NCBI GenBank assembly: GCA_045633625.1
Contig: JAZQYP010000025.1
Coordinates: 19,313-83,312 of the forward strand
Reading direction: 5' to 3'
Source: Eubacteriales bacterium
GTDB lineage: Bacteria > Bacillota > Clostridia > Oscillospirales > CAG-272
DNA: 64,000 bases
In this document: piece after piece, positions 46,390 to 60,993 of the stretch
Position numbering within the stretch: the stretch's first letter is position 1
How the letters are laid out: every line of letters begins with the position of its first letter
The notes under the pieces: generated by a model
Database searches by the model: none
The model's input: the letters and a program-made list of their open reading frames with translations, nothing else
What the model was told of the DNA's origin: nothing
Position numbers and translations under genes: made by a program

Positions 46390-46783
46390 TAAACAGGTCA
46401 AGCGAGACGTGCTTACCGCTTATCGTCGAATTACTTGGAAAATATGGGTGTATCTCAAAGCAAATCCTGACGTACTTGCTGAGAATAACAATCAAGAAGT
46501 TTTTGATGAAGTTGCAAGAATTCAAACCGAGATCTATCAGCGACGTAATCCTGATCAGACACGCGATGAAGCATTCAGTACTCAGGACTTCATTTCGGAC
46601 TTAGAGGCTAAGTACAATGCTGATGATTATTACTTTGAACAAGAGCTGATGGACTTGTTCAGACCGAGCGTAGAACATAATAAAGCATGGGGCACAAGAA
46701 TGTTCTTGGAACTGTTCTTTTATGCGGGTATGCCAGAGAGCTATACGAAATCGGTGCACCAAATGATAATTGATGAAGAATAA
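46355..46783 (+). CDS. Hypothetical protein
   Basis: AAGGAGGtaatcaacc-TTG. It overlaps the upstream gene by 35 nt; 142 aa. Confidence 0.4.
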   Translation: MLKKPNKMKWNSKQVKRDVLTAYRRITWKIWVYLKANPDVLAENNNQEVFDEVARIQTEIYQRRNPDQTRDEAFSTQDFISDLEAKYNADDYYFEQELMDLFRPSVEHNKAWGTRMFLELFFYAGMPESYTKSVHQMIIDEE

Positions 46784-46945
46784 ATATAGAGACATGATTA
46801 TGTAGGGGGGATTGTACATAGGAACAAGAAACCAATAAAAAACATTTGTGCGGTATAAAACTCTGTCTGTATCGGAGGTTTAGGGATTATTCGCAAAGAT
46901 TTGGTAAAATAATAGTACCAAGACCTAACGTAAGGAGAGTTTTTT

Positions 46946-47785
46946 ATGAAAAGAATTATAACTTCAAAAAGAATCAAAGACTTTGAAATCTATTTAAGAA
47001 ACGAAGAAAGGAGTAAAGCAACGATAGAAAAATATATGCGAGATGTGAGATATTTCACGTCATATGTTGGTGATGCAGAAATTGAAAAACAGAAAGTTCT
47101 TGATTATAAAAGTAAACTTATCGATGAATATGCTGTGGCAAGTGCCAATTCTATGATAGCGGCATTAAATTGTTTTCTTCGCTTTTGCGGTTGGCATAAT
47201 TTATGTGTTAAGCAATTCAAAATACAAAGAACTGTTTACTGTCCCGAAGAAAAGGAACTTACCCGTGAAGAGTATATTCGTTTGCTTGATGCGGCAAGCA
47301 AAAAGAACAACAAGAGATTAAATCTTATCATTCAGACAATTTGCGGAACTGGCATTCGTGTAAGTGAACTTGAATATATCACTGTTGAGGCGGTGCAAAA
47401 GAGCGAGGCTACAGTTAATTGTAAAGGAAAGAATAGAAAAATATTTATTGTCCCCGAATTAAGAAAAAAACTGCTCCGTTATGCAAAGGAGCAGGGGATA
47501 TGTGTTGGAACTCTATTTATAACGAGAGGTGGGAAACCAGTCAGTAGACATCATATTTGGAAAGAAATGAAGGCTCTTTGTAAGCAGGCAAATGTATCGC
47601 CAAGTAAAGTGTTTCCACATAATCTTCGCCATCTGTTCGCACGCACTTTTTATGGTATAGAAAAAGACATTGCCAAACTCGCAGACATACTGGGACACGC
47701 AAGCATTAACACGACACGTATTTATATAGTAACCACTGGTGCGGAGCATAAGCGCAAAATGGAGCACATGAGGCTCATCATATAA
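46946..47785 (+). CDS. Tyrosine site-specific recombinase (short, XerC/D-like, no arm-binding domain)
   Basis: Catalytic pattern GTGIRVSEL (R), HNLRHLFAR (HxxR), LGHASINTTRIY (H..Y); 279 aa. Confidence 0.85.
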   Translation: MKRIITSKRIKDFEIYLRNEERSKATIEKYMRDVRYFTSYVGDAEIEKQKVLDYKSKLIDEYAVASANSMIAALNCFLRFCGWHNLCVKQFKIQRTVYCPEEKELTREEYIRLLDAASKKNNKRLNLIIQTICGTGIRVSELEYITVEAVQKSEATVNCKGKNRKIFIVPELRKKLLRYAKEQGICVGTLFITRGGKPVSRHHIWKEMKALCKQANVSPSKVFPHNLRHLFARTFYGIEKDIAKLADILGHASINTTRIYIVTTGAEHKRKMEHMRLII

Positions 47786-47822
47786 AGAAAAAATCCCGAT
47801 GCGAGCACACCGAGACCAAAAA

Positions 47823-47842
47823 CAACATAACGAGAGTTATGT
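47823..47842 (+). repeat. Recombinase-type core site copy A
   Basis: caACATAACgagaGTTATGT: 7-bp inverted arms around an asymmetric gaga spacer. Confidence 0.7.
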
Positions 47843-47854
47843 ACTTTCGAAAAT

Positions 47855-47874
47855 CAACATAACGAGAGTTATGT
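47855..47874 (+). repeat. Core site copy B (direct repeat of A, 32 bp downstream)
   Basis: A 20-mer identical to copy A. Confidence 0.7.
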
Positions 47875-47911
47875 GATATTAGGTATCCGACAAATTCCAG
47901 ATACATAAGTA

Positions 47912-47940
47912 ATTATACCACAAAAGCACGTAAAAATCAA
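47912..47940 (-). promoter_or_regulatory. Near-consensus promoter inside the IR-flanked segment, currently pointing left (away from the TetR/SipW operon)
   Basis: Minus strand: TTGATT (47940-47935) - 17 nt - TATAAT (47917-47912) with an extended TGg. Confidence 0.55.
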
Positions 47941-48013
47941 TAGGTTCAGCACAATTTATAAGCTCACTATAAAATTTTATTGAAATTGATATAAAAAATT
48001 GCATGACAAAAAC

Positions 48014-48061
48014 GCCTTTCGTATAAATTTTTCAAAAAATTATGGCGAAAGGCTTTTTTTG
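48014..48061. terminator. Bidirectional hairpin terminator inside the IR-flanked segment
   Basis: gcctttcg (48014-48021) pairs with cgaaaggc (48046-48053). T7 lies downstream and an A-run upstream; the loop is AT-rich and 24 nt long. Confidence 0.5.
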
Positions 48062-48118
48062 TTGCGCTCATTTTTATTCTGCTTCATTGTTTTTTTGCAA
48101 CGATTACCACTTTTATTA

Positions 48119-48136
48119 ACATAACTCTCGTTATGT
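48119..48136 (-). repeat. Core site copy C (inverted relative to A/B)
   Basis: acataacTCTCgttatgt is the reverse complement of the 18-bp core of A/B. Confidence 0.7.
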
Positions 48137-48280
48137 CGCTTTTTTACTCAGTGGACGGCATATTTTTAAGCTTCCTATGCAGATAGGATTTTTTTAGGAA
48201 TGTTTTGTAGTGTTCACTAATAGCCTTCTTGTTTTGAACAAAGTTTATCGGTTGCTGATGAAATGGAGGGGGATAACCGA

Positions 48281-48895
48281 ATGAGGTACGAGGCGGAAAT
48301 AAAAGAACTTCTAATTGAAAATGCAATACATCTTATTGCCGAAGGCGGCTTTGAAAAAGCGACAACCAAGGAACTTACTCACAGTGGAGGGCAATTGCCC
48401 GATTTCAAAATGAACGAGGTCTATATTTACCGTTTATTTGGTAGTAAAGAAAAGTTGTACGAAACAGCTTTCGTCCGTTTGGATGCAGAACTCTTACAAG
48501 CATTTAAGAATGGCGTAGAGCTTGTCGGCGGTTTTGATGGTGAACGTAAGAAAAAACTGAGCGAGTTTTTTATATTGGCTTGGAATTATATCTTGGGTAA
48601 CGAAGAGCGTTGCCGTTGTTACGTCAGATATTACTATTCGATCTATTTCAAGGGCGATTCCCGCAGATCTCATAAGAGACTTTTTGAGGGAATTATAACC
48701 GAAATGACTCCGATCTTCAAGGAAGAAGCGGATGTCGAAGCTATATTACACAGCGTTTTTACTGCGATGTTTGACTTTGCCATTCGTGTGTATAATGGTG
48801 AGCTTGAGGATAGTGATATTAACAGACCCCATATCTTCAACGTGCTCTACTGCATGATGGCGACATACTTCAAGGAGTCGGTAAAAGCGTCGTAG
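48281..48895 (+). CDS. TetR/AcrR-family transcriptional regulator
   Basis: N-terminal HTH LIENAIHLIAEGGFEKATTKELTHSGG with an all-helical remainder. An alternative start lies at 48263. Confidence 0.75.
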   Translation: MRYEAEIKELLIENAIHLIAEGGFEKATTKELTHSGGQLPDFKMNEVYIYRLFGSKEKLYETAFVRLDAELLQAFKNGVELVGGFDGERKKKLSEFFILAWNYILGNEERCRCYVRYYYSIYFKGDSRRSHKRLFEGIITEMTPIFKEEADVEAILHSVFTAMFDFAIRVYNGELEDSDINRPHIFNVLYCMMATYFKESVKAS

Positions 48896-48913: not shown

Positions 48914-49153
48914 TTGAAAAATCAAAAAGAAGCAAAGAAAATTGAACAAAAAATTGAGAACAAGGTCGTGTATGTTGCTACGAGCACAAATACCTGTATT
49001 TCTTGTGGTAGAGAGATACCTGAAGGTATGCTCGTTTGTATGATGTGTGATAATGGGGTGTCATGTCCACGATGTGTATGCTGTGATGCACCCTTGCATA
49101 ACGGTCAATCTGTTTGTGCTAAATGCAGCGAGATCTTTCTGAAAAGAAGATAA
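48914..49153 (+). CDS. Small zinc-ribbon protein
   Basis: AGGAGatcgaa-TTG. CISCG...CMMCDNGVSCPRCVCCD...CAKC. Confidence 0.4.
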   Translation: MKNQKEAKKIEQKIENKVVYVATSTNTCISCGREIPEGMLVCMMCDNGVSCPRCVCCDAPLHNGQSVCAKCSEIFLKRR

Positions 49154-49201
49154 AGATAAATATCCTTAATATGTATGTGATTTTAAGAGAGGAGGATAAC
49201 G

Positions 49202-50881
49202 ATGCCAAAAAACAAAAAAGACTCTGAAAATCGATTGATAAAAGGCATTATGATTGCAGGGGAAGCCGTGGCGGGCTTCTTTGCCCTTGTCGGACAAAGG
49301 ATATGCAGCAGTGTAAAATTTGAAAAGGTGATTGGTAAGGACGATCCTAACGCCATAGGAAAACGCATCAATAATATGAAGCGAATTGCCGCAATGATCG
49401 GGCTGCTGATCATTGTCCTCATTATTATAATATTGTCGCTCCGCGGTTGCCAAGGCGGCGAATTGCCGCATGGTTCGGTGGATATCCCGGGCAACGTCAT
49501 CGACCCGATACCGTCCGTTGTTACTCCGAAAGCTGATTTGGAGTTTAACAACAGTAACGCCGAAGAAAACATTCCGTTTGAGGTGGAAGGTATGAACGGC
49601 GGAGATAGTGAGTGCATTCTTTACCGCGTAGTGGCTACATACAATTCGGATTTCGTTTTGAAATACGATATGACGATCCGTGAGGATGAGGAATTTCAAA
49701 AGCTTGCTGAAATACTGAAAATTAAGGTTGAGCTTGTGAAAACAGATGGTGAGGCGCTTTTGTATGACGGTCTGCTTACCGATATGTCGGCAGTTGAAAT
49801 AGATTTGAACGCCGACAAGGATACTACGACCGAGTATCTGTTCCGTATCACTATGTACCTTGATGCTCCGCTTAGTGAGCAGTATTACGGTCAAAAGTTG
49901 ATAGCCGATATGTCTTGGTGGATCGAAGAGCAGGACAATATTTCGATTGCCAACAATGAATTCACTACCATTTCAAAGACAATACCGCCCGATCCGCCTG
50001 CCATAATACCGAATTTGAGCTTTATTACGAAAAATGAAGGCGATAACACCGCATTTGATATGCGGCATATTATGAACAGCGATCGTCAGACAAGGTATTT
50101 TGCCTTTGAGGTGACTCACGGTGAAGATGTTAAGATGGCTATTACGAACGCCATCGTGACCGACAGCAAGCTGAAAGAGGTGCTGAAAGTCAAGGTCGAG
50201 CTTGTGGGTGAGAATGGAAACACCATCCTCTACGAAGGTCTGCTCAAAGATCTCAACGTAGAGCACACTCTCACTAAAAACGACAACAATAAAACAGCAG
50301 TTTATTATAAGGTTACTGTCATTGCTGACGGTTTGACGGAAGATTATTGCGAAACCAAACTTGTATGCGATCTCTCGTGGACGCTTGACGGCACGAGTGA
50401 ACAGCTTAAAGTGCCCAGCAACAGCTTTGTTGCCTACGATAAGCCTGTAACACCGCCCGATCCTCCTACACCGCCCGAGGTGGCAACGTCCATCGAATTA
50501 ACGGCGAAGGACGGATATGATAATGTTCCGTTTTCGGTTGACAATATGCTCCCCGGCGACAACGCAACGCAATATTACTGTGTTTCGGTCACACACGACA
50601 GCACCGAGACTGTCCGCTTCTATATCAACGTGGACACGGCGCAAAACCTAACCGCAGTAATGCGCGTGAAGGTCGAGCAGCTTATACCCGATGCAGAAGA
50701 TAAGATTCTTTACGACGGACTCATGAAGGACTGCACCGCTGTTGACGTAAGCGTTACGGCAAGCTCTGAGACCGTCACACCCATCTACTACCGCATAACC
50801 GTTTATACCAATGGAGCCGAGGTCGGAAACGAATACGTGGGCGAAAGCCTTACCGCCGATTTCTCGTGGCAATTACAGTAA
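49202..50881 (+). CDS. Membrane-anchored protein with three tandem TasA/camelysin-like domains
   Basis: GAGGAGGataacg-ATG. TM IAAMIGLLIIVLIIIILSL. Three repeats of about 125 aa are separated by PPDPP linkers, each with the signature LK(V/I)KVE(L)V...(I/L)LY(D/E)GL(L/M).D ... (L/F)SW. Confidence 0.5.
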   Translation: MPKNKKDSENRLIKGIMIAGEAVAGFFALVGQRICSSVKFEKVIGKDDPNAIGKRINNMKRIAAMIGLLIIVLIIIILSLRGCQGGELPHGSVDIPGNVIDPIPSVVTPKADLEFNNSNAEENIPFEVEGMNGGDSECILYRVVATYNSDFVLKYDMTIREDEEFQKLAEILKIKVELVKTDGEALLYDGLLTDMSAVEIDLNADKDTTTEYLFRITMYLDAPLSEQYYGQKLIADMSWWIEEQDNISIANNEFTTISKTIPPDPPAIIPNLSFITKNEGDNTAFDMRHIMNSDRQTRYFAFEVTHGEDVKMAITNAIVTDSKLKEVLKVKVELVGENGNTILYEGLLKDLNVEHTLTKNDNNKTAVYYKVTVIADGLTEDYCETKLVCDLSWTLDGTSEQLKVPSNSFVAYDKPVTPPDPPTPPEVATSIELTAKDGYDNVPFSVDNMLPGDNATQYYCVSVTHDSTETVRFYINVDTAQNLTAVMRVKVEQLIPDAEDKILYDGLMKDCTAVDVSVTASSETVTPIYYRITVYTNGAEVGNEYVGESLTADFSWQLQ

Positions 50882-50896
50882 AGGAGACAATGGTAT

Positions 50897-51445
50897 ATGA
50901 ATGAACAAAATCTAAAGAAGAAGTTAACCGTGATGATCGTAACCGTCGTACTCCTTTCATTGGGACTTGCGATTACCAGCTTTGCCTTGGCAAGCTCTAT
51001 CGTCAGCATACGGAACAACCGTTTTACCATGAGTATGGGAGTTGATCTTACGATTAACGATGGAAAACCCATTGTTGACGTAACCGATATGGTTTATGAG
51101 CCCGGTGGAACCTATACAAGCGAATTTCCCATTGCTAACCTCGGCACGTTTGATGTGTGGTATCGTGTTTATCTTACGGGTGTGGACGGTGAATTAAAGG
51201 ACGATATTACCGTCACCATCAAGGAAAAGGACGGAACTGTTCTCGGCAAGGGTACGATGAACCAATTGACCGCCGATAAGGCAATGACAGGCAGTCTTGC
51301 CGCAGGAGAAGAAAAAACGCTTATCATTGAATTCTATTTCTCCCCCGATGCCGATAACAGTGCGCAGGGTCAAACCGTGTCTTTTAATATCACGGCAGAC
51401 GCAACGCAGAAGAAAAACAATCCCGACAAGGATTTCGGTAATTGA
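50897..51445 (+). CDS. Small TasA/camelysin-family protein
   Basis: Signal/anchor LTVMIVTVVLLSLGLAITSFALASS, then a single beta-rich domain ending ADATQ...DKDFG, like the junction motif of the large paralogs. Confidence 0.55.
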   Translation: MNEQNLKKKLTVMIVTVVLLSLGLAITSFALASSIVSIRNNRFTMSMGVDLTINDGKPIVDVTDMVYEPGGTYTSEFPIANLGTFDVWYRVYLTGVDGELKDDITVTIKEKDGTVLGKGTMNQLTADKAMTGSLAAGEEKTLIIEFYFSPDADNSAQGQTVSFNITADATQKKNNPDKDFGN

Positions 51446-51456
51446 GGGAGGACAGT

Positions 51457-52182
51457 ATGAAAAAAGCATTACAAATAACAAAGACCGTATTGGTTTGGCT
51501 TGTAGTCGCCATTGCGGTCGGTATGATGATATTTACGCTGATCTCGGTCAGTACATTCGATAAGACCGACAGAAACATATTCGGCTTCAAGTTCTTTATC
51601 GTCACGAGTGATTCGATGGCAGCCACTGACTTTGACGCAGGCGATATTGCGATATCGAAGAATGTTGACCCCAAAACGTTGAAAGAGGGCGACATAATTA
51701 CCTTCTTGTCGCAAGACCACGATAACTTCGGCGAGGTGGTTACGCATAAGATCAGAAGATTGACGACCGATGCAAACGGACGTCCCGGATTCGTTACCTA
51801 CGGTACTACGACTGATACCGATGACAGAACTGTTGTAACACATGAATACGTTGTCGGACAGTACGTTGGCAGAATACCGAAGGTGGGTTCGTTCTTTATG
51901 TTTCTTAAAACGACGCCCGGTTATATTCTTTGTATTCTTCTTCCTTTTCTGCTTCTTATTCTGTCTCAGGGACTTAATTGTATCCGTTTGTTCCGTCAAT
52001 ACAAAAAGGAACAAATGGACGAAATGAAGGCAGAAAGAGAAAAGATCGAGCAAGAACGCGCTGAAAGTCAGCGTATGATGGCAGAGCTGCTGGAGCTCAA
52101 AGCCCAGCTTGCCAAACAAGACGGTGGGGCAACGTCTCCCGCCGATCCTGCGTCCGAGGATATCACAACGGACGAAGCATAA
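51457..52182 (+). CDS. sipW: SipW-type (ER/archaeal-type) signal peptidase I with a C-terminal TM and coiled-coil tail
   Basis: GAGGGAGGacagt-ATG. Catalytic-Ser box FIVTSDSMAAT, GDIITF, VVTHKI His box. Confidence 0.8.
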   Translation: MKKALQITKTVLVWLVVAIAVGMMIFTLISVSTFDKTDRNIFGFKFFIVTSDSMAATDFDAGDIAISKNVDPKTLKEGDIITFLSQDHDNFGEVVTHKIRRLTTDANGRPGFVTYGTTTDTDDRTVVTHEYVVGQYVGRIPKVGSFFMFLKTTPGYILCILLPFLLLILSQGLNCIRLFRQYKKEQMDEMKAEREKIEQERAESQRMMAELLELKAQLAKQDGGATSPADPASEDITTDEA

Positions 52183-52254: not shown

Positions 52255-54366
52255 ATGACTAACACAAGATCCACAAAGCGCGCACTTCTCGCAAGCTTCA
52301 TGGCACTGCTCCTTTGCTTTTCCATGCTGCTTAGCACGACGTTCGCGTGGTTTACCGACTCTGTAACGAGCGGAAACAACATTATCCAATCCGGTAATCT
52401 TGACATAGAGCTTGAATACTGGAACGGAACCGCTTGGGCGGATGTAAAAGATGCTTCTGACATCCTTACCAACACCCTTTGGGAGCCCGGCGTAACCGAG
52501 GTTGCATACCTCAGAGTTGCCAACGCAGGTTCTCTCGCACTCAAGTATCAGCTTGGGATCAACATTCTCAACGAGCTTGAGGGCAAAAACCAGAAAGAAG
52601 AGACTTTCAAGCTCTCCGATTACATTATGTTCGGCGTAATTGAGGGCGTAAATGGTGAGACCACACCTTACCCCAAGGATGACGCAGGCAGAGCCGCAGC
52701 TATCACTGCTGTAACCGATGCTAAGATCATTTCTGCTGGCTACACCAAGGCATCTACCATGAATCCCGATGACGAGCTTTATCTCGCACTGGTAGTTTAT
52801 ATGCCTACAGATACTAATGATGTTGCTAACCACAACGGCACCGACATTCCTCAGATCGATCTTGGTATCAACGTATTTGCTACTCAGGTTGAAGCAGATC
52901 TTGAGACTGATAGCTTCGGTCCCGACTACGATAAGGACGCTTCGGCTTTTGTTTCTTCTGCTGATGAGCTGAGAGCGGCCATTGCAAATGTTAAGGATGG
53001 TGGCACGGTTTATGTAAATGATGGAACTTATAACATCAACAGCCAGCTCACCATTCCTGGAAAATCTGTTAACATCGTTGGTGTTGGTGAAAATGCAGTC
53101 ATTCATATGACCGACACAAGAGTTAACTACAACAAGATTTTCTACATTTACGGAAGTGCTGACGGTGAGGATGTAACTGTTAATATTAGCAATGTTACTT
53201 TGACCGCAGACATCGCTACCAAGTCTGACATTTGGATCAGAACCGATGGACCGAATGGTGAGAAGGTTAACGGCAATGTTACCGTAAATCTTGATAACGT
53301 TACTTGCGCTTCTATTATTTGCGACAACAACTACGTTGACGGTGATACTGTTAATCTTAAGATTGCGAACAGTAACGTTAAGAAGGTCGCTTTGGATGCA
53401 TCTCCGTTCAATGGTAATGGTCTCAATACCTACACAAACTTGACCTATAATGCTACAAGAATTGATAGCATAACCATTAGCTCTTTGGTTGAAGATCTTA
53501 CTCACATCACGATAAATGGTGTTAACCCCACTGCGACCGGTGAGCAGCAGACTCTGACATATGTTGATACTGCTGAGGAACTGCAAAGTGCTTTGGACAA
53601 TGCGGTTGACGGCGACGTCATCGTTCTCGGCGCTGACATTACGGGTGATGTAATGGCTACTCAGAAGCCTGATGTGAAGATTACTGTTGACGGTAACGGT
53701 CATGAGTTCAACGGAGTGTTCACTGTTAACGGTAAGAGCGCAGCTTATGCCACCGCTGCAATTACAATTCAAAATGTGAATTTCAATGCTGAAGGCATTT
53801 CCAAAGATGCGAGCATCAGATTTGGTGGAGACAACTCGATGCTTTACGTAGCGAACGTAACCGTTAAAAACTGTACTTTCACAGGCAATCTTGCAGATGA
53901 AAAGGTTGGCGTTAAGTCCTATACGGGCGGCGATAAAAATATTACCATTACTGGCTGTACGGCAACCGGAATGCACTCCTTGGCTCAGCTTTATGTTACC
54001 GAGGGCGTGACCATCACTGATTGTGAGATAGACAACAGTAAGAGCGGAATCAGTGTGCGTTCTTCTACAAATGTACTTATTTCAGATTGCAATATCAATA
54101 CAACAGTTTATGGTATCCGTGCTGACGGTGGTGCTTGCACACAGACCATCAAGAACAATACTATTACTGCAAAGCAGCCCATTGTTGTTCGCAAACTCAC
54201 TTCTGCTGGATACGTGCTTAACCTTGAAGGCAACACCTTGACAACTACATCCACAGACGGCTATCAGGTTATCCTGACAACCGGTGATGATGAAGCGGCA
54301 TACGTTGCTCCCGATGCCGGTAACTACACAGTTAACGGTCAGTCTGAGTTGAACTTCTTCAAATAA
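52255..54366 (+). CDS. SipW-dependent secreted protein 1: TasA-like N-domain + right-handed beta-helix (PbH1-type) C-domain
   Basis: Signal KRALLASFMALLLCFSMLLSTTFAWFTDSVTSGNNII. PbH1-like repeats (ITITGCTATG..., VTITDCEIDNSKSGISV, VLISDCNINTTVYGIRA). Confidence 0.7.
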   Translation: MTNTRSTKRALLASFMALLLCFSMLLSTTFAWFTDSVTSGNNIIQSGNLDIELEYWNGTAWADVKDASDILTNTLWEPGVTEVAYLRVANAGSLALKYQLGINILNELEGKNQKEETFKLSDYIMFGVIEGVNGETTPYPKDDAGRAAAITAVTDAKIISAGYTKASTMNPDDELYLALVVYMPTDTNDVANHNGTDIPQIDLGINVFATQVEADLETDSFGPDYDKDASAFVSSADELRAAIANVKDGGTVYVNDGTYNINSQLTIPGKSVNIVGVGENAVIHMTDTRVNYNKIFYIYGSADGEDVTVNISNVTLTADIATKSDIWIRTDGPNGEKVNGNVTVNLDNVTCASIICDNNYVDGDTVNLKIANSNVKKVALDASPFNGNGLNTYTNLTYNATRIDSITISSLVEDLTHITINGVNPTATGEQQTLTYVDTAEELQSALDNAVDGDVIVLGADITGDVMATQKPDVKITVDGNGHEFNGVFTVNGKSAAYATAAITIQNVNFNAEGISKDASIRFGGDNSMLYVANVTVKNCTFTGNLADEKVGVKSYTGGDKNITITGCTATGMHSLAQLYVTEGVTITDCEIDNSKSGISVRSSTNVLISDCNINTTVYGIRADGGACTQTIKNNTITAKQPIVVRKLTSAGYVLNLEGNTLTTTSTDGYQVILTTGDDEAAYVAPDAGNYTVNGQSELNFFK

Positions 54367-54510
54367 GAAATCCGTAATAGCTGTTCTTCCGAATTTCTCG
54401 GTGATTGAATAGTAAAACGCTCATAGGCTGAGGTGATGGTTACACAGTTACCACGAAGCCGAAAGCACAACAAACGACTGCTCTCGTAGCAGATGTCACA
54501 AACAAAGTCA

Positions 54511-54577
54511 CCCAACTCCTTCGGGAGTTGGGCGGCAATTAAAGAGCATAAATCCGTTTGTGTTTTTTAATTGCTGA
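54511..54577 (+). terminator. GC hairpin plus U-tract terminator module (copy 1 of a 55-nt repeat)
   Basis: cccaactcc-ttcg-ggagttggg, then agcata..tgtgtt followed by TTTTTT. The stretch 54523-54577 is nearly identical to 62877-62931. Confidence 0.55.
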
Positions 54578-54816
54578 GAGATATAAATTCAAGGCAAGAA
54601 ATTCCGAGCTGAAAGGAGAAATTGAATTATAAAACAAGCTCAAAAAGCAAAATGCACAACATTTGGGATGTGTTTTTGCAAGATTGTGCAATAACCAACT
54701 CTCACAAAGACAAGGTTAAAGACGACAAATAATCGTTTTCGATTTGCGTTTTGCCGATATGGTCGAATAACGATTCCGAAACACATATTGGCAAAATCAA
54801 ACAGGAGGTCATTGGA

Positions 54817-56910
54817 ATGATGAAAAGAAACACAAAATCCGCTTTGCTTTCAAGTGTTCTTGCTTTGTTTCTTTGTTTCACGATGTTGCTGGGGACGACA
54901 TTCGCCTGGTTTACAGACAGCGTGACAAGTGCAAACAACCTGATCCGTTCCGGTAATCTTGACGTTGAGCTTGATTATTGGGACGCTGAAAACAGTGAGT
55001 GGAAAACCATTGAGGGAACCAGCTCTCTCTTTGCTAACAACCTTTGGGAGCCCGGTCACACCGAAGTTGTGTACCTCAAGCTCTCTAACCTTGGTTCTCT
55101 TGCTCTCAAATATCAGCTCAGCATCAACGTGCTGTCCGAAACTGAGGGTACAAATAAAGAAGGTGATACCTTTAAGCTTTCCGAGTACATTCAGATGGGT
55201 GTTAAAGAAGGTATTAACGGCGAGACTAATGCTTATGCTGACCGTGCAACAGCTGTTGAAGCTGTAAAGGATGCATCCGGTATCATCGGTGATGGCTACG
55301 CCAAGTCTGGTGAAATGATTGCTGATGCCGACGAGCTTTATATGGCTGTTGTAGTCTATATGCCGGAGACAGTTGACAACGAAGCAAATGCTATGACAGA
55401 CACCGACCTTCCCACCATCAACCTCGGCTTACAGGTGCTCGCAACGCAGTATGAGGCAGAGGATGATAGCTTTGATAATCAATACGATACAGGTCTTGAT
55501 CCAACAACAAGTTATATGTTCTCGGGAGCAGATCTACACAATTCTACTACGAGGTCCGGTAATTTCAAATTGTCTGAAGACATTAAAACCTCTGAAAGCA
55601 CTGCCCGTTATGGTTGGGGATATGAGTACATCATCAGAAATGGTGCTGACTACACTTTAGATCTGAATGGCAAAACAATCGTTCACGACACCATCAATGA
55701 AAATGCAAACAATAATGCACTCACCTATCTGTTTGTAGCTAACCACGCAGGCACCAAGCTGACTATCAACGGAGAAGGAAAAATCTACTCCAATAATAGT
55801 GCGGGTTGGACTTGTGCAGTACAAGGTAAGGATGGCACATTAGTTACCATTAACGGAGGAGATTTTGAAGTAGATAATGGTATTGCCGTTTGGGCTGGTG
55901 CAGGCTCCCATATTATTATCAATGGCGGTAGTTATGTCAACGGCAACGCAAATACGGATCACGAGCTTGTCTATTCCAGTGGCGGCGTGATCGATATTTA
56001 TGGCGGCTTCTTCCACAATACAGATGGCAATTATACCTTGAATGTTGAAGACAGAAACCGCGCAACCTCTGCTATCAACGTATACGGCGGCACCTTTGTG
56101 AACTTCGATCCCTCCACAGGCGGTCAGGATCCCGATCAGATCAAGGTTGCAGACGGTTATATGGTGAAAGAAAAAGCTCAGGAAAACGGTGACGTTTGGT
56201 ACACTGTAGTTCCGATTCCCGAGGGAACTGAAACCGTGTCCTCTTATGAGTCGCTTACGGATGCGAGCGGTACAAGCGGAGATCACGTTTTGGTTGGAGA
56301 TGTGGTTGCGACCGACAAGGTTTACTTTGGCGATAACACTACCAACACCATCGATTTGAACGGTAAATCCGTTTCCGCTACGGGAGACTATCTCTTTGCA
56401 ACAAGCGGTGAGAATTGTGTGTTAACCATCAACGGTGAGGGCGATATTTCTGCTAATGCCAGTTTCGCGGGCTTTGCGAACAACAGTGGTGAACTGAATA
56501 TTAACGGTGGTACATATCAACTTGGGGAAACCACGAAAACAGCACATTTTTATTCGCAGAATTCAGGCACAATAGTAATCAATGACGGCACCTTTATTTC
56601 TACTGATTCGGATACGCCGATTGTGTACTGCATAAATGGATTTATTGAAATCAATGGTGGATTCTTCCAAAACACCGCAAATCCCAATGCTGCACTTATC
56701 AGTATGGGTAACAATCTCAATTATGTTAACAACCAAAAGGTTACGCTTAGTGGTGGAACCTTCGTAAACTGGAATCCTGTAGTTGACAGTGCATTTGCTT
56801 ACGATTGGCCGCAATGTCCTGCACTGATCGTTCTTGCTGATGGATATCAGATGATTTCCGAAACACAGGCGAACGGGGACGTTTGGTATATGGTTGTTCC
56901 GATTGACTGA
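54817..56910 (+). CDS. SipW-dependent secreted protein 2: TasA-like N-domain + beta-helix-like C-domain
   Basis: AGGAGGtcattgga-ATG. KSALLSSVLALFLCFTMLLGTTFAWFTDSVTSANNLI. The ING(G/E)G...F motifs and the ADGY..(K/E)..ENGDVWY.VVPI element are each repeated twice. Confidence 0.7.
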   Translation: MMKRNTKSALLSSVLALFLCFTMLLGTTFAWFTDSVTSANNLIRSGNLDVELDYWDAENSEWKTIEGTSSLFANNLWEPGHTEVVYLKLSNLGSLALKYQLSINVLSETEGTNKEGDTFKLSEYIQMGVKEGINGETNAYADRATAVEAVKDASGIIGDGYAKSGEMIADADELYMAVVVYMPETVDNEANAMTDTDLPTINLGLQVLATQYEAEDDSFDNQYDTGLDPTTSYMFSGADLHNSTTRSGNFKLSEDIKTSESTARYGWGYEYIIRNGADYTLDLNGKTIVHDTINENANNNALTYLFVANHAGTKLTINGEGKIYSNNSAGWTCAVQGKDGTLVTINGGDFEVDNGIAVWAGAGSHIIINGGSYVNGNANTDHELVYSSGGVIDIYGGFFHNTDGNYTLNVEDRNRATSAINVYGGTFVNFDPSTGGQDPDQIKVADGYMVKEKAQENGDVWYTVVPIPEGTETVSSYESLTDASGTSGDHVLVGDVVATDKVYFGDNTTNTIDLNGKSVSATGDYLFATSGENCVLTINGEGDISANASFAGFANNSGELNINGGTYQLGETTKTAHFYSQNSGTIVINDGTFISTDSDTPIVYCINGFIEINGGFFQNTANPNAALISMGNNLNYVNNQKVTLSGGTFVNWNPVVDSAFAYDWPQCPALIVLADGYQMISETQANGDVWYMVVPID

Positions 56911-56919
56911 TTAAAAATC

Positions 56920-56949
56920 CTTCCTAACTCCTTTCGGGGAGTTAGGAAG
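56920..56949 (+). other. GC hairpin of the same family (no U-tract)
   Basis: cttcctaactcc-tttcgg-ggagttaggaag. Confidence 0.5.
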
Positions 56950-56975
56950 AACAGCGAAAAACGAGGTTATTACAA

Positions 56976-59375
56976 ATGACAAAAATGAAAACAACAAAAA
57001 GCGCTCTTGTTTTGAGCATAGTATCACTGTTCCTTTGTTTTACAATGCTCATCGGGACGACATTCGCTTGGTTCACCGACAGTGTGACGAGTGCAAATAA
57101 CATTATCAAGTCGGGTAATCTTGATATCGAGCTTTATCATACCGATGATAAAGCCGACCGCGTAAAGGTTGATAGTGATACAGTGCTATTTGATGATGTT
57201 TCCCTTTGGGAGCCCGGCGCAGTCGTTTACGAAACTTTTGAGGTTGTGAACGAGGGTGATCTCGCACTCAAATATCAGCTTTCTGTTAACGTAGCGAATG
57301 CAACAGCAAACGCTAATGGCAACACACTTTCCGATATTTTGAAGGTGGGCGTTATTGAAGGTGGTACGACCATCACCGACCGCACTGCTTTAATCGGTTG
57401 TGTAGCGGAATGGAAAGCACTTTCTTCATTCGTTGAGGCAGGTAATCTTGTCGAGAAAAATGAAAATGACATATACACAATCGTTATCTATTGGGAACCG
57501 AGTGAATACGATAACGATTACAATATGAACAACGGCGAAGGTGCTCCCCTTACGCTTGATATTGGGGTAACACTCTTTGCAACTCAGCTCACTGCGGAAA
57601 TGGATTCCTTTGGTGATGATTATGACGAATTCAGTGCAGTTACTACTGTTGCTGAGGCTGAAGCAATAATGGCACAAAACAAGGACGTTACCCTTGCAGG
57701 TTGCAACGAGCCTGATGGTGTCTTAAATATTCCTGCTGATTACACAGGTACATTGACTTTGGCGAATACTACTATTAAATCCGTGCAGGCTGAAAAGAAT
57801 GCGAATATTGTTATTCTTGGTAATGTAACAGTTGATGCTAACGGTAGCGGTATAGCTATGATGTCGTTGAACGAGGAAGCGTTTGATGGTTCTGCTATCA
57901 CCGCAAACGGCGAGTTGAATATTTCCGGTAGCGGAGCACTTACCGCCATTGCTGCTGATGTGACCGGCGCCTTCGGTATCGGCGGTATGAACGTAACTAA
58001 GCTTACGGTTAAAGATGTTCATATTGTAGACGTAAAGGGTAGCTTTGTCCAGCCTTTGTTCGTAAGCGATACAAAATATGGAAAGAGCGAGCCCGAGGGC
58101 GGAGCAGCAATCGGTTCTGGTTTTAACGGTGCGGAAATCAATCTGATTAACGTAACGATTGACAATGCACAAGGTGGCTCTAAGGCAGCAGGCATCGGTG
58201 CTCGTTATTGGACGGGTGTAACAATTAACATAATCGATTCTATCATTAAAAACGTAGAGGGCGGTAACGCTTCTGCCGGTATCGGTAGTAGCCGTGTAAG
58301 TGGTGATGCAACCGAGTCGGGCACGACGATCAGCATCACAAATTCCATCATAACCGCAAAAGGCGGTCAAGCGGGTGCGGGCATTGGCTCGGGATATGAT
58401 ACTCACTGCGGTTCCAATCAACCTATGTGTACAATCAACATTGCTGATTCCGCTATCAACGCTGAAGGCGGCAAGTATGCGGCAGGCGTTGGTACGGGTT
58501 ATCACAATGCAGCACTTAACGGTGAGATCAAGAATAGCACCGTAAATGCAAAGCCCGGTGAAGAATTTTACAAGGATTCTTACACTCTCGCTATGGACGT
58601 GGGCTTTGGTGTTATAGATCCTGCGCGTGAGGGTCAGCAGATCGATAGTAAGTTGATTTATAATGGCGTCGAAATCCGCCTCCCCTCCTGTGTAGTCGTT
58701 GCTAATGGCACAGAGCTTTCAGCCGCACTTGCGGAGGGTAAGAGCGTTATCCTCACCGATAATGTGGTTCTTGACGAGGCTCTCACTATTACGAAATCTG
58801 CTGTGATCCAGCTTAATGGCAAAACGCTGACCTCCAATGGACTTGATTTCCAAGCCGGTGCTACGATCAAGAACGGTGTCATTACGAGTGGTGGAAACAC
58901 TAATATGACTCCTCACATCAAAGTGTCTGGTGGCACATTGAATATGTATGATGTCACGGTAGACGTAAACCATCACCTGAACGCTAATGTATATTGGGCT
59001 GAGGCTACGGGCATTGAGGTGTGTAACGCATCCGCTATGTTTAATGACTGCCATATTAAGATTGATAATCCTACGGGAGCGCAGTGGGTTTACAGCTACG
59101 GTATCGGCTTGAATAATGCAACAGTAACGATGAACGGCGGTTCTATTACCGCAGATTGTGCAGAAGGAACTGCCGCAGAAGGACCTACCAATCCTAACGC
59201 AATTAGCTCTATGGGTGAATGTACCATAACACTTAACAGCGTAAATGTTGATGCTACCTATTACGCCACTACTGTTAATGGACATCTTACCATCAATACA
59301 ACGGATAAAAACATAACAAGTTCAGATGTTGTTGATAACAGCGGTGGTAGCCATACTCTGAACTATATTGACTGA
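56976..59375 (+). CDS. SipW-dependent secreted protein 3: TasA-like N-domain + Gly-rich beta-helix (GG.AAGIG repeats)
   Basis: KSALVLSIVSLFLCFTMLIGTTFAWFTDSVTSANNII. Repeats GGAAIGSG / GGSKAAGIG / GGNASAGIG / GGQAGAGIG / GGKYAAGVG. Confidence 0.7.
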   Translation: MTKMKTTKSALVLSIVSLFLCFTMLIGTTFAWFTDSVTSANNIIKSGNLDIELYHTDDKADRVKVDSDTVLFDDVSLWEPGAVVYETFEVVNEGDLALKYQLSVNVANATANANGNTLSDILKVGVIEGGTTITDRTALIGCVAEWKALSSFVEAGNLVEKNENDIYTIVIYWEPSEYDNDYNMNNGEGAPLTLDIGVTLFATQLTAEMDSFGDDYDEFSAVTTVAEAEAIMAQNKDVTLAGCNEPDGVLNIPADYTGTLTLANTTIKSVQAEKNANIVILGNVTVDANGSGIAMMSLNEEAFDGSAITANGELNISGSGALTAIAADVTGAFGIGGMNVTKLTVKDVHIVDVKGSFVQPLFVSDTKYGKSEPEGGAAIGSGFNGAEINLINVTIDNAQGGSKAAGIGARYWTGVTINIIDSIIKNVEGGNASAGIGSSRVSGDATESGTTISITNSIITAKGGQAGAGIGSGYDTHCGSNQPMCTINIADSAINAEGGKYAAGVGTGYHNAALNGEIKNSTVNAKPGEEFYKDSYTLAMDVGFGVIDPAREGQQIDSKLIYNGVEIRLPSCVVVANGTELSAALAEGKSVILTDNVVLDEALTITKSAVIQLNGKTLTSNGLDFQAGATIKNGVITSGGNTNMTPHIKVSGGTLNMYDVTVDVNHHLNANVYWAEATGIEVCNASAMFNDCHIKIDNPTGAQWVYSYGIGLNNATVTMNGGSITADCAEGTAAEGPTNPNAISSMGECTITLNSVNVDATYYATTVNGHLTINTTDKNITSSDVVDNSGGSHTLNYID

Positions 59376-59397
59376 TTTAAAAGGAGGTTATAACAGA

Positions 59398-60909: not shown

Positions 60910-60923
60910 GCGATCATCTATGT

Positions 60924-60954
60924 CCACCCACTCCCCTTTTTGTGGAGTGGGCGG
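60924..60954 (+). other. GC hairpin of the same family
   Basis: ccacccactcc-cctttttgt-ggagtgggcgg. Confidence 0.5.
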
Positions 60955-60993
60955 CAAAGATTGCTAACACGATGTTGATATGAGGTAAAAAAT

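What the first reader, a model, noticed from the sequence alone, without database searches (positions are those of the whole stretch)
46946..48262. Candidate invertible promoter switch: short tyrosine recombinase, 18-bp inverted core sites and an outward-facing consensus promoter
**Seen:** Immediately after the 279-aa XerC/D-like recombinase lie three copies of ACATAAC-gaga-GTTATGT. Copies A (47823-47842) and B (47855-47874) are direct; copy C (48119-48136) is inverted, with a tctc spacer. The roughly 260-bp B-C segment contains three elements:
- a near-consensus promoter on the minus strand (TTGATT - 17 nt - TATAAT with TGg, 47940-47912), which currently fires toward the recombinase 3' end
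- a bidirectional hairpin terminator (48014-48061)
- a weaker + strand promoter candidate (TTGCAT - 17 nt - TATAAA, about 47999-48027)

**Established:** This layout, with IRs flanking a promoter beside a dedicated recombinase, is the classic inverton/fimS-type phase switch.

**Inference:** In this assembly the switch is OFF. B x C inversion would place the strong promoter about 190 bp upstream of the TetR/SipW/TasA-like operon and move the terminator behind it.
Basis: partly seen in the sequence, partly recalled or inferred. Interest (0 to 1): 0.8.

Follow-up and report, generated by a model that had tools for sequence, protein, structure and literature searches.

The report
Invertible promoter switch beside its recombinase
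This is a real flip-switch: a 244-bp DNA segment carrying a promoter, next to its own recombinase gene, that probably turns a secreted-fibre (SipW/TasA-like) operon on and off in a gut Clostridia bacterium; it is a new example of a well-known kind of switch.

Summary
Three exact copies of ACATAACGAGAGTTATGT lie just after a 279-aa Xer-like tyrosine recombinase: two direct and one inverted. They bracket a 244-bp segment that holds a near-consensus extended -10 promoter and a bidirectional terminator.

- Of 154 related loci with enough downstream sequence, 135 have the same layout.
- These loci use 32 different central spacers, and the left and right spacers are always reverse complements of each other.
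- The promoter segment occurs in both orientations. This includes contigs that encode the same relative recombinase: flanks 99-100% identical, core 98-99.6% identical but flipped.
- In this strain's own lineage, a 14-bp spacer plus site has moved from the left side to the right side and is reverse-complemented. That needs two inversions.

The recombinase stays linked to the downstream TetR-like/SipW/TasA-like operon, not to the upstream conjugative element, so the sites are not that element's att sites.

In the window the promoter faces the recombinase (OFF). All roughly 20 contigs of this strain are OFF, and no read-level data were available.

Verdict: a genuine inverton, a new member of a known kind. 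It belongs to a very large, unnamed family in gut Clostridia.

The parts
46946..47785 (+). Dedicated Xer-like tyrosine recombinase (279 aa), the presumed invertase
   Evidence: Pfam Phage_integrase E 1e-25 plus a SAM-like N-terminal domain. The closest solved relative is an archaeal XerA-like protein, 4a8e, E 2e-18. Catalytic motifs are present: R138, K160/K162, H225-x-x-R228, H251, Y260. In 148 of 154 related loci a recombination site lies within 130 bp of the stop codon.
47792..47817 (-). Terminator hairpin that forms only in minus-strand RNA. It would stop OFF-state transcripts before they enter the recombinase gene.
   Evidence: Terminator scan. Folding gives -12.5 kcal/mol (z -4.3) on the minus strand against -1.2 on the plus strand. 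It is conserved in relatives at 74% identity or more, and 3 of 8 pairs show compensatory changes. Its function is inferred.
47825..47842 (+). Recombination site A (ACATAAC-GAGA-GTTATGT), the outer left copy
   Evidence: Exact match. The A/C inverted repeat extends to 35 nt at 83%. The outer flank shows a conserved AAAnCR.
47843..47856 (+). 14-bp spacer ACTTTCGAAAATCA between sites A and B. Together with a site it moves between the two sides of the switch.
   Evidence: In L004, L007, L008, L010 and L192 the same spacer lies to the right of the core and is reverse-complemented (TGATTTTCGAAAGT).
47857..47874 (+). Recombination site B, the inner left copy, a direct repeat of A
   Evidence: Exact match. 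The number of copies on each side varies among contigs that carry the identical recombinase: 1-3 on the left and 1-3 on the right.
47875..48118 (.). Invertible core segment (244 bp)
   Evidence: Found in both orientations in related loci with collinear flanks. An alignment of 27 oriented cores shows conserved terminator and promoter blocks.
47912..47940 (-). Main switch promoter, TTGATT-17-TGgTATAAT, currently facing the recombinase gene (OFF for the operon)
   Evidence: Promoter scan, 10 of 12 matches plus TG. It is conserved at the same place, 35-49 nt from one end of the core, in nearly all family members and in either orientation. Activity was not tested.
47883..47904 (-). Short inverted repeat GTATCTG-N8-CGGATAC just downstream of the -10. 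It could be a 5' stem-loop of the switch transcript or a protein-binding palindrome.
   Evidence: Conserved block in the core alignment. Of the cells counted, 88.5% are paired, and 4 of 6 pairs have changes on both sides; partners slid by 1-3 columns give 19-51%. RNAalifold alone predicted nothing.
48008..48059 (.). Bidirectional intrinsic terminator inside the core. In either orientation it blocks read-through from the recombinase gene.
   Evidence: Folding gives -22.7 and -21.5 kcal/mol on the two strands, with flanking A and T runs. GCCTTTCG...CGAAAGGC is the most conserved block of the core.
47999..48027 (+). Weak + strand promoter candidate, TTGCAT-17-TATAAA; doubtful
   Evidence: Present as described. 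It is not listed by the scan, and its -10 is not kept in relatives.
48119..48136 (-). Recombination site C, inverted (central TCTC on the + strand)
   Evidence: Exact match on the minus strand.
48281..48895 (+). First gene of the controlled operon: a TetR-like HTH protein (204 aa)
   Evidence: Pfam TetR_N E 1.4e-4, which is below the gathering score. It was called as 204 aa in other contigs. It is conserved downstream of recombinases at 66-100% identity.
48914..50881 (+). Zinc-ribbon protein (79 aa) and a 559-aa protein of unknown family
   Evidence: Weak double-zinc-ribbon hits; no family for the 559-aa protein. Both are syntenic in relatives.
50897..52182 (+). TasA/camelysin-like protein (182 aa) and SipW-type signal peptidase (246 aa)
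   Evidence: Peptidase_M73 E 7e-10. TIGR02228 signal peptidase I scores 65 bits, above its cut-off of 51.85, and the SipW model gives E 7e-22.
52255..62847 (+). Five large secreted proteins with SipW-dependent-type signal peptides (703, 719, 799, 513 and 617 aa)
   Evidence: TIGR04088 cognate_SipW domain at or above its 19-bit cut-off in each.

Best explanation
**What it is.** This is a phase-variation switch of the inverton type. The 279-aa Xer-like tyrosine recombinase recognises 18-bp sites. Each site has palindromic ACATAAC/GTTATGT arms around an asymmetric GAGA centre. Sites lie on both sides of a 244-bp segment, in opposite orientation.

**How it flips.** Recombination between a left site (A or B) and the right site (C) inverts the segment.

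**What the segment carries.**
- A strong sigma-A-type promoter (TTGATT-17-TGgTATAAT) sits near one end.
- A bidirectional terminator sits in the middle. It keeps recombinase read-through out of the operon in both states.

**OFF state (as assembled).** The promoter points at the recombinase gene. Its transcript would be stopped by a minus-strand-only terminator just before the recombinase stop codon.

**ON state.** After inversion the promoter lies about 190 nt upstream of the TetR-like gene. It would transcribe the operon that encodes the SipW signal peptidase, a TasA/camelysin-like protein and five large SipW-dependent secreted proteins. Cells would then switch heritably and reversibly between making and not making these surface or matrix proteins.

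**Extra site copies.** They let different site pairs recombine, so spacer-plus-site units migrate from one side of the switch to the other.

**Shown and inferred.**
- Shown: the anatomy, its conservation, and the existence of both orientations in relatives.
- Inferred: that this recombinase is the invertase, that the promoter and terminators are active, and that operon expression depends on orientation.
For: **Sites.** Three exact sites, with none expected by chance.

**Recombinase.** It has the tyrosine-recombinase fold and catalytic motifs.

**Conserved architecture.** Of 154 related loci with at least 600 bp downstream, 148 have a left site within 130 bp of the stop codon. Of these, 135 have a right site whose central 6-mer is the exact reverse complement. 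There are 32 different central 6-mers across lineages.

**Both orientations exist.**
- L091, L092, L094, L095, L098 and L118 are flipped relative to the window, while L099, L100, L108, L110, L122 and L157 are not.
- Contigs encoding the identical relative recombinase differ in orientation. For P0045, L172, L175 and L176 are OFF and L174, L178, L179 and L180 are ON. For P0038, L185 and L189 are OFF and L182-L184 and L186-L188 are ON.
- In those pairs the inversion is clean: flanks 99-100% identical, core 98-99.6% identical and reverse-complemented.
- L046 and L038 show the same in a group about 63% identical to the window's recombinase.

**Footprint in this strain's lineage.** The spacer-plus-site unit is transposed and reverse-complemented, and site copy numbers vary, among contigs with a 100% identical recombinase.

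**Conserved internal parts.** The promoter and terminator blocks are the conserved parts of the core. The strand-specific terminator shows compensatory changes.

**Linkage.** The recombinase is linked to the downstream operon, not to upstream genes.

**Operon content.**

**Assembly breaks.** Several contigs end or start exactly at a site, as expected where assemblies meet mixed orientations: L005, L106, L121, L192, L194 and L196.
Against: - No inverted (ON) copy was found for this exact strain. All roughly 20 contigs carrying the identical recombinase or TetR-like protein are OFF.
- An exact search for the one-left-site ON junction in the metagenome collection found nothing.
- No sequencing reads could be examined, so switching within a population is not shown.
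- The promoter and terminators are consensus or folding predictions. The count of promoter-like hits in the region is not above chance.
- The link between recombinase and sites rests on association only.
- The enrichment of contig ends at the switch is modest: 23 downstream ends against 15 upstream ends in the first 350 bp.
- The TetR assignment is below Pfam's threshold.
- Internal promoters within the 14-kb operon were not examined.
Confidence: 0.85

Rival explanations
1. The recombinase is the integrase of the upstream conjugative element of about 43 kb, and the repeats are its attachment sites or remnants of them.
For: - The gene lies at the right-hand edge of a block of conjugation genes: a coupling protein, a VirB4/TraG-like ATPase, a VirB11-like ATPase and an adhesin.
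- No other integrase was identified among the 20 larger ORFs upstream of 44.3 kb that were scanned.
- Relatives also sit next to mobile-element genes such as TnpV, DUF6809 and a resolvase.
Against: - All three sites lie within 310 bp on one side of the gene, and no copy exists at the other end of the element or anywhere else in the 64 kb.
- Relatives at 74-83% identity keep the downstream TetR-like/SipW operon but have unrelated upstream genes.
- The segment between the sites is seen inverted, not excised.
- At 279 aa the protein has no arm-binding domain of the kind found in lambda-type integrases (own knowledge).
Confidence: 0.03
2. It is a Xer/dif-like multimer-resolution system. The recombinase resolves replicon dimers at a palindromic dif-like site, and the extra copies are incidental.
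For: - The best family and structure matches are Xer recombinases: XerA, XerD, XerC and XerH.
- Like dif sites, the site has two inverted arms around a short central region (own knowledge).
Against: - Scores are far below every Xer equivalog cut-off: 143 against 220 for XerA, and 117 against 330 for XerD.
- The sites come as inverted pairs that bracket a conserved promoter and terminator.
- Both orientations are observed.
- Some genomes carry three such cassettes about 20 kb apart, each with a different central spacer.
Confidence: 0.03
3. It is a two-output switch rather than ON/OFF. In the present orientation the weak + strand promoter (47999-48027) gives low operon expression, while the strong promoter makes an RNA antisense to the recombinase region and so sets the switching rate.
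For: - TTGCAT-17-TATAAA is present and would start inside the terminator loop, so its transcript could escape termination.
- The TTGCAT-like -35 is partly conserved.
- In the group about 63% identical to the window's recombinase, there is no room for a terminator between the left site and the recombinase stop codon.
Against: - The -10 of the second promoter is not conserved; it reads TACTTT or TACATT in many relatives.
- A conserved minus-strand terminator stands between the strong promoter and the recombinase gene. This argues that antisense transcription is prevented rather than used.
Confidence: 0.08
4. The repeats are static regulatory palindromes, for example operators for the TetR-like protein. 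The orientation differences between genomes are old, one-off rearrangements rather than active switching.
For: - Each site is itself a 7-bp palindrome, as many operators are.
- All contigs of this exact strain show one orientation.
Against: - Contigs with the identical relative recombinase and 99-100% identical flanks differ by a precise inversion.
- Site units move between sides within this strain's lineage.
- The central spacers of left and right sites always stay reverse-complementary across 32 variants. This is the signature of a crossover region, not of an operator.
- The sites accompany the recombinase even where the downstream genes include no TetR-like protein.
Confidence: 0.03

Closest known systems
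E. coli fimS switch with FimB/FimE (type 1 fimbriae)
   Same: - A short invertible segment (296 bp in E. coli, as quoted in PMC5903667) contains only a promoter and is bounded by short inverted repeats.
- It is flipped by tyrosine recombinases encoded next to it.
- It controls an operon for a secreted surface fibre.
   Different: - The recombinase here is a 279-aa two-domain Xer-like protein. The NCBIfam 'tyrosine-type DNA invertase' models score only 23-26 bits against cut-offs of about 221, so it is not a FimB/FimE family member.
- The sites are 18-bp palindromic cores present in tandem copies, not single 9-bp repeats (own knowledge for fim).
- The segment carries its own bidirectional terminator.
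- The host is a Gram-positive anaerobe.
Clostridioides difficile RecV-dependent switches (cwpV, flgB, cmrRST, pdcB)
   Same: - The host belongs to the class Clostridia.
- A tyrosine recombinase drives the inversion.
- The inversions gate surface proteins and regulators (PMC2784873, PMC7446863, PMC5903667, PMC9286219).
   Different: - RecV is a single master recombinase encoded away from most of its targets, whose inverted repeats are mostly unrelated (PMC5903667).
- Several of those switches act after transcription initiation, through terminator formation or Rho, rather than by promoter orientation (PMC7446863 abstract, PMC2784873).
- Here each switch has its own adjacent recombinase, a shared arm sequence and an internal promoter.
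'Inverton group 139' with 'invertase group 35' in a defined human gut community (PMC11892184)
   Same: - That group has 33 invertons, 32 of them from Clostridia, spread over 17 strains.
- Nearly every one has a tyrosine recombinase nearby.
- The examples given have 205-227 bp between inverted repeats of 14-26 bp, similar to the 220-245-bp cores here.
- Orientation ratios shifted during passaging and with surface attachment.
- It is probably the same family.
   Different: - Identity could not be tested, because the repeat motif and the sequences are not in the text held.
- That study is a survey. It describes neither the site anatomy, the terminators, the tandem sites, nor a SipW/TasA-type target.
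Bacteroides promoter invertons (capsule, fimbriae, outer-membrane proteins)
   Same: - These are gut commensals with many promoter inversions in front of surface-structure operons.
- Relatives of this cassette also precede capsule-type loci. One example is three cassettes in Clostridium symbiosum in front of genes that look, by eye only (not scanned), like CpsB-type phosphatase and Wzz chain-length genes.
   Different: The phylum, promoter type, repeat motifs and recombinase families all differ (PMC11892184; Jiang et al. 2019 as cited there).
Xer recombinases and dif sites
   Same: - This is the closest protein relationship found: XerA, XerD, XerC and XerH by profile and PDB sequence search.
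- The core site has two inverted arms around a short central region.
   Different: - Scores are below every Xer equivalog cut-off.
- The sites are paired in inverted orientation around a promoter, and the reaction observed is inversion.

Membership tests
Invertible promoter switch (inverton) | A short DNA segment bounded by inverted repeats | tested here: met
   Exact 18-bp sites at 47825 and 47857 (+) and at 48119 (-). The repeat extends to 25-35 nt.
Invertible promoter switch (inverton) | The segment is found in both orientations relative to fixed flanks | tested here: met
   Met in relatives, including contigs that share the identical relative recombinase. For this exact strain only an indirect footprint was found, the transposed spacer-plus-site unit. 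No inverted copy was seen.
Invertible promoter switch (inverton) | A promoter lies inside the segment and faces outward | tested here: met
   TTGATT-17-TGgTATAAT. It is conserved in position across the family in either orientation. This is sequence evidence only.
Invertible promoter switch (inverton) | Expression of the adjacent genes depends on orientation | not testable with these tools
   This needs RNA-seq, reporter fusions or locked mutants.
Invertible promoter switch (inverton) | Inversion is catalysed by a site-specific recombinase | tested here: inconclusive
   There is strong association: 148 of 154 loci have a site within 130 bp of the recombinase stop codon. There is no functional test.
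Tyrosine recombinase superfamily | Catalytic domain with the R-K-H-R-H/W-Y residues | tested here: met
   Pfam PF00589 scores 90.9 bits against a cut-off of 27.1. Alignment to XerA-like 4a8e covers GIRVSE, HNLRH, GHASI and RIY.
XerC/XerD/XerA/XerS orthologues | Score above the NCBIfam equivalog cut-off | tested here: not met
   XerA scores 143 against 220, XerD 117 against 330, XerC 111 against 335 and XerS 60 against 267.
FimB/FimE-type 'tyrosine-type DNA invertase' | Score above the NCBIfam subfamily cut-off | tested here: not met
   NF007370 scores 26 bits against 221, and NF007371 scores 23 bits against 222.
Integrase with att sites of a mobile element | Sites lie at the two ends of the element, and the recombinase is inherited with the element | tested here: not met
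   No site occurs elsewhere in the 64 kb. Relatives at 74-83% identity have unrelated upstream genes but the same downstream operon.
Inverton group 139 / invertase group 35 (PMC11892184) | Shared inverted-repeat motif and recombinase cluster | not testable with these tools
   Size, taxon and an adjacent tyrosine recombinase all agree. The motif and sequences are not in the held text.
SipW/TasA-type secretion operon (the controlled genes) | A SipW-type signal peptidase together with substrates carrying the cognate signal peptide | tested here: met
   TIGR02228 scores 65 bits against a cut-off of 51.85. TIGR04088 is at or above its 19-bit cut-off in five proteins. Peptidase_M73 gives E 7e-10.

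The most novel reading that the evidence does not exclude
**Reading.** The cassette (recombinase, sites, terminator, promoter) is a portable, self-insulated phase-variation module.

**Spacers as addresses.** The lineage-specific central spacers (32 variants seen) may work as natural heterospecific 'addresses'. Several paralogous recombinase/switch pairs with identical arms could then coexist in one genome without recombining with each other. Three cassettes about 20 kb apart in Clostridium symbiosum, C. transplantifaecale and UMGS1015 each have a different spacer.

**More than two states.** The tandem extra sites may make the switch multi-state rather than binary. Each inversion through a different site pair changes how many palindromic sites lie in the 5' leader of the operon transcript.
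Probability: 0.3. Interest if true: 0.65.

Novelty: new member of a known kind. Interest (0 to 1): 0.45.

Why it matters
**New target for a known mechanism.** It adds a SipW/TasA-type matrix or fibre operon to the list of surface structures put under DNA-inversion control. The host is an uncultured gut Clostridia lineage. No paper linking invertons to SipW or TasA turned up.

**A large family.**
- In the loci examined, the cassette sits in front of varied genes. Some were identified by family or similarity searches: DNA methyltransferase-like genes by ORF listing, and SipW/TasA-type genes by tblastn and profile scans.
- Others were named only by reading the translations, without a family scan: capsule-type genes, collagen-like proteins, anchored surface proteins and signalling proteins.
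- The family may therefore be a Clostridial counterpart of the Bacteroides invertons.

**Practical uses.**
- The defined site consensus, ACATAAY-N4-RTTATGT next to a recombinase of about 280 aa, gives a simple rule for finding such switches without reads.
- The spacer variants may be useful as orthogonal recombination sites.

Tried and rejected
1. **Exact search for an ON junction of this strain.** I searched the metagenome collection for left flank + site + reverse-complemented core end. It gave 0 hits. It covers only the state with one left site.
2. **Look-ups of contigs carrying the identical recombinase or TetR-like protein.** All were OFF.
3. **Contig ends at the switch as a sign of mixed orientations.** Several contigs stop exactly at a site. 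The enrichment over the upstream control is modest, 23 against 15, so I use it only as a hint.
4. **The second, + strand promoter.** Its -10 is not conserved, so I do not count it as part of the mechanism.
5. **RNAalifold on the short repeat after the -10.** It predicted no structure. A pair count on a structure I specified gave moderate support.
6. **Rfam scan of 46700-48500.** No match at E up to 1, so there is no known riboswitch or leader.
7. **Plasmid collection search.** Only one 101-bp weak match, in a Subdoligranulum variabile plasmid record.
8. **Literature.** The Jiang et al. 2019 paper was not held. A broad term search gave nothing useful. The hsdS 'epigenetic inverton' papers concern a different kind of inversion. 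The supplementary tables of PMC11892184 with repeat motifs were not available.
9. **Integrase/att and Xer/dif readings.** Both were considered and rejected; see the rival explanations.
Full report
**1. The observation**

- The 18-mer ACATAACGAGAGTTATGT occurs three times in the 64-kb window and nowhere else, even when three mismatches are allowed. The copies are at 47825-47842 and 47857-47874 on the + strand and at 48119-48136 on the - strand. Shuffled sequence gives 0.07 matches on average.
- Each copy has a 7-bp palindromic arm pair around an asymmetric GAGA centre, so only the centre gives a copy its direction.
- The complementarity between left and right copies extends outward, to 25 nt (92%) for B/C and 35 nt (83%) for A/C.
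- The ORF at 46946-47785 encodes a 279-aa protein with the Pfam Phage_integrase domain and a SAM-like N-terminal domain.
- The minus-strand promoter TTGATT-17-TATAAT, preceded by TG, is at 47940-47912.
- The hairpin at 48008-48059 folds equally well on both strands, at -22.7 and -21.5 kcal/mol, with U-runs on both sides.

The count of promoter-like matches in the region is not above chance. The promoter's weight therefore comes from conservation (section 2), not from the match itself.

**2. Evidence from related sequences: the layout is conserved**

I collected 196 loci that encode this recombinase, relatives of it, or the window's TetR-like protein. They came from metagenomes and from one-genome-per-species bacterial contigs. 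The hosts are gut Clostridia: Eubacteriales, Oscillospiraceae and Acutalibacteraceae MAGs from sheep, deer and humans. More distant relatives, 50-58% identical, occur in Clostridium symbiosum, C. transplantifaecale and Faecalicatena contorta.

Of the 154 loci with at least 600 bp downstream of the recombinase gene:
- 148 have an ACATAAY-N4-RTTATGT site within 130 bp of the stop codon.
- 135 have, 220-400 bp further on, a second site whose central six bases are the exact reverse complement of the first.
- Thirty-two different central 6-mers occur across lineages, while the arms stay the same.

Tyrosine recombinases require the crossover region of two partner sites to be identical but do not read its sequence (established knowledge). 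Free variation between lineages, with strict matching within a locus, is what a crossover region should show. An operator or a chance palindrome should not behave this way.

**3. Evidence from related sequences: the segment is found in both orientations**

*Relatives at 77-91% recombinase identity.* Measured against the window core, the segment is reverse-complemented in L091, L092, L094, L095, L098 and L118. It is collinear in L099, L100, L108, L110, L122 and L157.

*L091 in detail.* This MAG has a recombinase 91% identical to the window's. Window 47701-47842 and 48119-48320 align collinearly with it, while window 47818-48136 aligns in reverse at 91% identity over 322 bp.

*Contigs encoding one and the same relative recombinase.* This is the strongest case.
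- For P0045, L172, L175 and L176 have the promoter facing the recombinase, and L174, L178, L179 and L180 have it facing the operon.
- For P0038, L185 and L189 face the recombinase, and L182-L184 and L186-L188 face the operon.
- L172 against L179: left flank 100% identical over 189 nt, right flank 99%, core 99.6% identical over all 245 nt but inverted.

*A more distant group.* In a human-gut group whose recombinases are about 63% identical to the window's, L046 and L038 differ by a clean inversion of a 234-bp core.

*This strain's own lineage.* The window has two left sites separated by ACTTTCGAAAATCA and one right site. L004, L007, L008, L010 and L192 carry the 100% identical recombinase or TetR-like protein. 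They have one left site and two right sites separated by TGATTTTCGAAAGT, the reverse complement, and their core has the same orientation as the window's. The simplest path between these states is A x C inversion followed by inversion between A and the relocated B. Other contigs carry 1 to 3 sites on each side.

*What was not found.* I found no contig of this exact strain with the core inverted.

**4. Anatomy of the core**

I aligned 27 diverse cores, each oriented by its promoter. Three conserved blocks appear.
- The terminator, GCGCAAC-AAAAAGCCTTTCG...CGAAAGGCGTTTTTG.
- The promoter, TTGATTTT...TTTGTGgTATAAT, an extended -10. It lies 35-49 nt from one end of the core in nearly all loci.
- A short inverted repeat, GTATCTG-N8-CGGATAC, just after the -10. 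In a pair count, 88.5% of cells are paired and four of six pairs change on both sides; slid controls give 19-51%.

Outside the core, between site A and the recombinase stop codon, there is a hairpin plus U-run that forms only in minus-strand RNA. It folds at -12.5 kcal/mol, against -1.2 on the + strand, because it relies on G-U pairs. It is conserved in relatives at 74% identity or more, with compensatory changes in three of eight pairs.

I infer three things from this anatomy.
- In the OFF state, the strong promoter makes only a short transcript of about 110 nt that stops before the recombinase gene.
- In both states, the internal bidirectional terminator stops read-through from the recombinase gene.
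- The operon therefore depends on the orientation of the one promoter.

**5. What the switch controls**

- Downstream lie a TetR-like HTH gene (weak Pfam hit) and a zinc-ribbon protein.
- Next come a 559-aa protein of unknown family and a TasA/camelysin-like protein.
- These are followed by a SipW-type signal peptidase, which scores above the NCBIfam cut-off.
- Last are five proteins of 513-799 aa with the SipW-dependent signal peptide.
- This gene set follows the recombinase in relatives down to about 63-74% identity. The three genes immediately upstream are shared only by the closest relatives, at 91% or more.
- The region upstream, 4.7-46.8 kb, is a conjugative element. The switch is not tied to it.
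- B x C inversion would put the -10 at 48076-48081, about 190 nt before the ATG at 48281.

**6. Rival readings**

- *Integrase with att sites.* The sites are all on one side, there is no second locus in the 64 kb, the synteny is with the operon, and inversion rather than excision is observed.
- *Xer/dif resolution.* Scores are far below all Xer equivalog cut-offs. The sites are paired, inverted and wrapped around a promoter.
- *Static operators.* This is contradicted by near-isogenic contigs that differ by a precise inversion and by the spacer covariation.
- *A dual-output switch.* This cannot be excluded, but the conserved minus-strand terminator and the unconserved second -10 argue against it.

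**7. Comparison with what is known**

- *How it works.* It works like the E. coli fim switch, which is a short segment containing only a promoter (296 bp, as quoted in PMC5903667) with recombinases encoded alongside.
- *Not a FimB/FimE member.* The recombinase scores 23-26 bits against cut-offs of about 221 on those models. Its nearest relatives are Xer-type proteins.
- *Unlike the C. difficile RecV system.* There, one remote recombinase serves several switches with unrelated repeats, and several of those switches act after transcription initiation (PMC5903667, PMC7446863, PMC2784873).
- *Probably the same family as a published survey group.* A survey of a defined human gut community reported 'inverton group 139'. 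It has 33 invertons, 32 from Clostridia across 17 strains, with cores of about 205-227 bp, and is tightly linked to a tyrosine 'invertase group 35' (PMC11892184). I could not retrieve its motif to test this.
- *No prior link to SipW or TasA.* No paper connecting invertons with SipW or TasA was found.
- *Family size.* The recombinase family is large and carries only generic names.

**8. Verdict**

- It is an inverton with a dedicated Xer-like tyrosine recombinase.
- In the window it is in the orientation that should leave the SipW/TasA-like operon silent.
- It is a new member of a known kind, not a new mechanism.

The less ordinary features are:
- its self-insulating terminators;
- its lineage-specific crossover spacers, with three differently addressed cassettes side by side in some genomes;
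- its tandem site copies, which migrate between the two sides.

Confidence:
- About 0.95 that the segment inverts in nature.
- About 0.8 that the adjacent recombinase does it.
- About 0.75 that orientation gates the operon.
- 0.85 for the explanation as a whole.

Noticed in passing
L144, L149, L150 (Clostridium symbiosum ATCC 14940 scaffold580); L143, L148, L154 (C. transplantifaecale); L145, L146, L153 (UMGS1015): Three paralogous recombinase-plus-switch cassettes lie about 20 kb apart on one contig. Each has a different central spacer (TGTGGA, TATAGA, TAGTGA). In the three C. symbiosum loci examined (L144, L149, L150), each cassette stands in front of genes that look, by eye, like a capsule locus (CpsB-type phosphatase; a Wzz-like protein in two of the three). 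These downstream proteins were not scanned against any family library, and the downstream genes in the other two species were not examined. The arrangement resembles the multiple capsule invertons of Bacteroides.
   Followed up: partly
L046 3858-4109 versus L038 (human-gut group, recombinase about 63% identical): Here the same kind of switch precedes a pair of DNA-methyltransferase-like genes (261 and 500 aa). In the orientation with the promoter facing downstream, an ATG inside the invertible core opens an ORF that reads through the right-hand site into the first gene. Inversion may therefore supply a start codon as well as a promoter.
   Followed up: no
L171 and L177 (about 150 bp after the recombinase stop); L173 (about 230 bp after it): These are naturally broken switches. 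In L171 and L177 the core is cut just before the terminator and is followed by a TnpV-DUF6809 block and a Na+/H+ exchanger gene. In L173 an IS element with an rve transposase sits inside the core just upstream of the promoter. Both would lock the switch or destroy it.
   Followed up: partly
L005, L106, L121 (contig ends); L192, L194, L196 (contig starts): Several assembled contigs end or begin exactly at, or within 4 nt of, an 18-bp site. This is expected if the sample holds mixed orientations or mixed site numbers and the assembly graph branches there. The overall enrichment of contig ends is modest, 23 against 15 in the control.
   Followed up: partly
window 4726-46783: Upstream of the switch is a conjugative element of about 42 kb, with genes almost all on one strand. 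It encodes:
- a VirB11-like ATPase (12540-13853);
- a 1318-aa adhesin with Listeria-Bacteroides repeats (16909-20865);
- a VirB4/TraG-like ATPase (21992-24487);
- a coupling protein (27001-28800);
- a 1002-aa methylase-SNF2 helicase fusion (39850-42858);
- DUF5131, DUF6809 and HU proteins.

No integrase was seen among the ORFs scanned.
   Followed up: partly
window 47883-47904 (minus strand): A conserved 6-7-bp inverted repeat, GTATCTG-N8-CGGATAC, lies at the very start of the predicted switch transcript. G-U pairs are frequent and there are some compensatory changes. It may be a stabilising 5' stem-loop or a binding site for a regulator such as the TetR-like protein.
   Followed up: partly
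window 49202-50881: By eye, the 559-aa protein with no family match seems to contain three similar modules, each ending in a motif like ADxSWxL. It also has an N-terminal membrane segment. It may be a triple TasA-like domain protein. This was not analysed.
   Followed up: no
L001, L002, L097, L012, L174 and others: A second spacer type, CGCCTTCAAAA(A/T)A of 13 bp, recurs between tandem sites on either side of the switch in many lineages. In L001 it is present on both sides at once, in mirror orientation. How extra site copies arise was not worked out; unequal exchange between sister chromosomes is one possibility.
   Followed up: no
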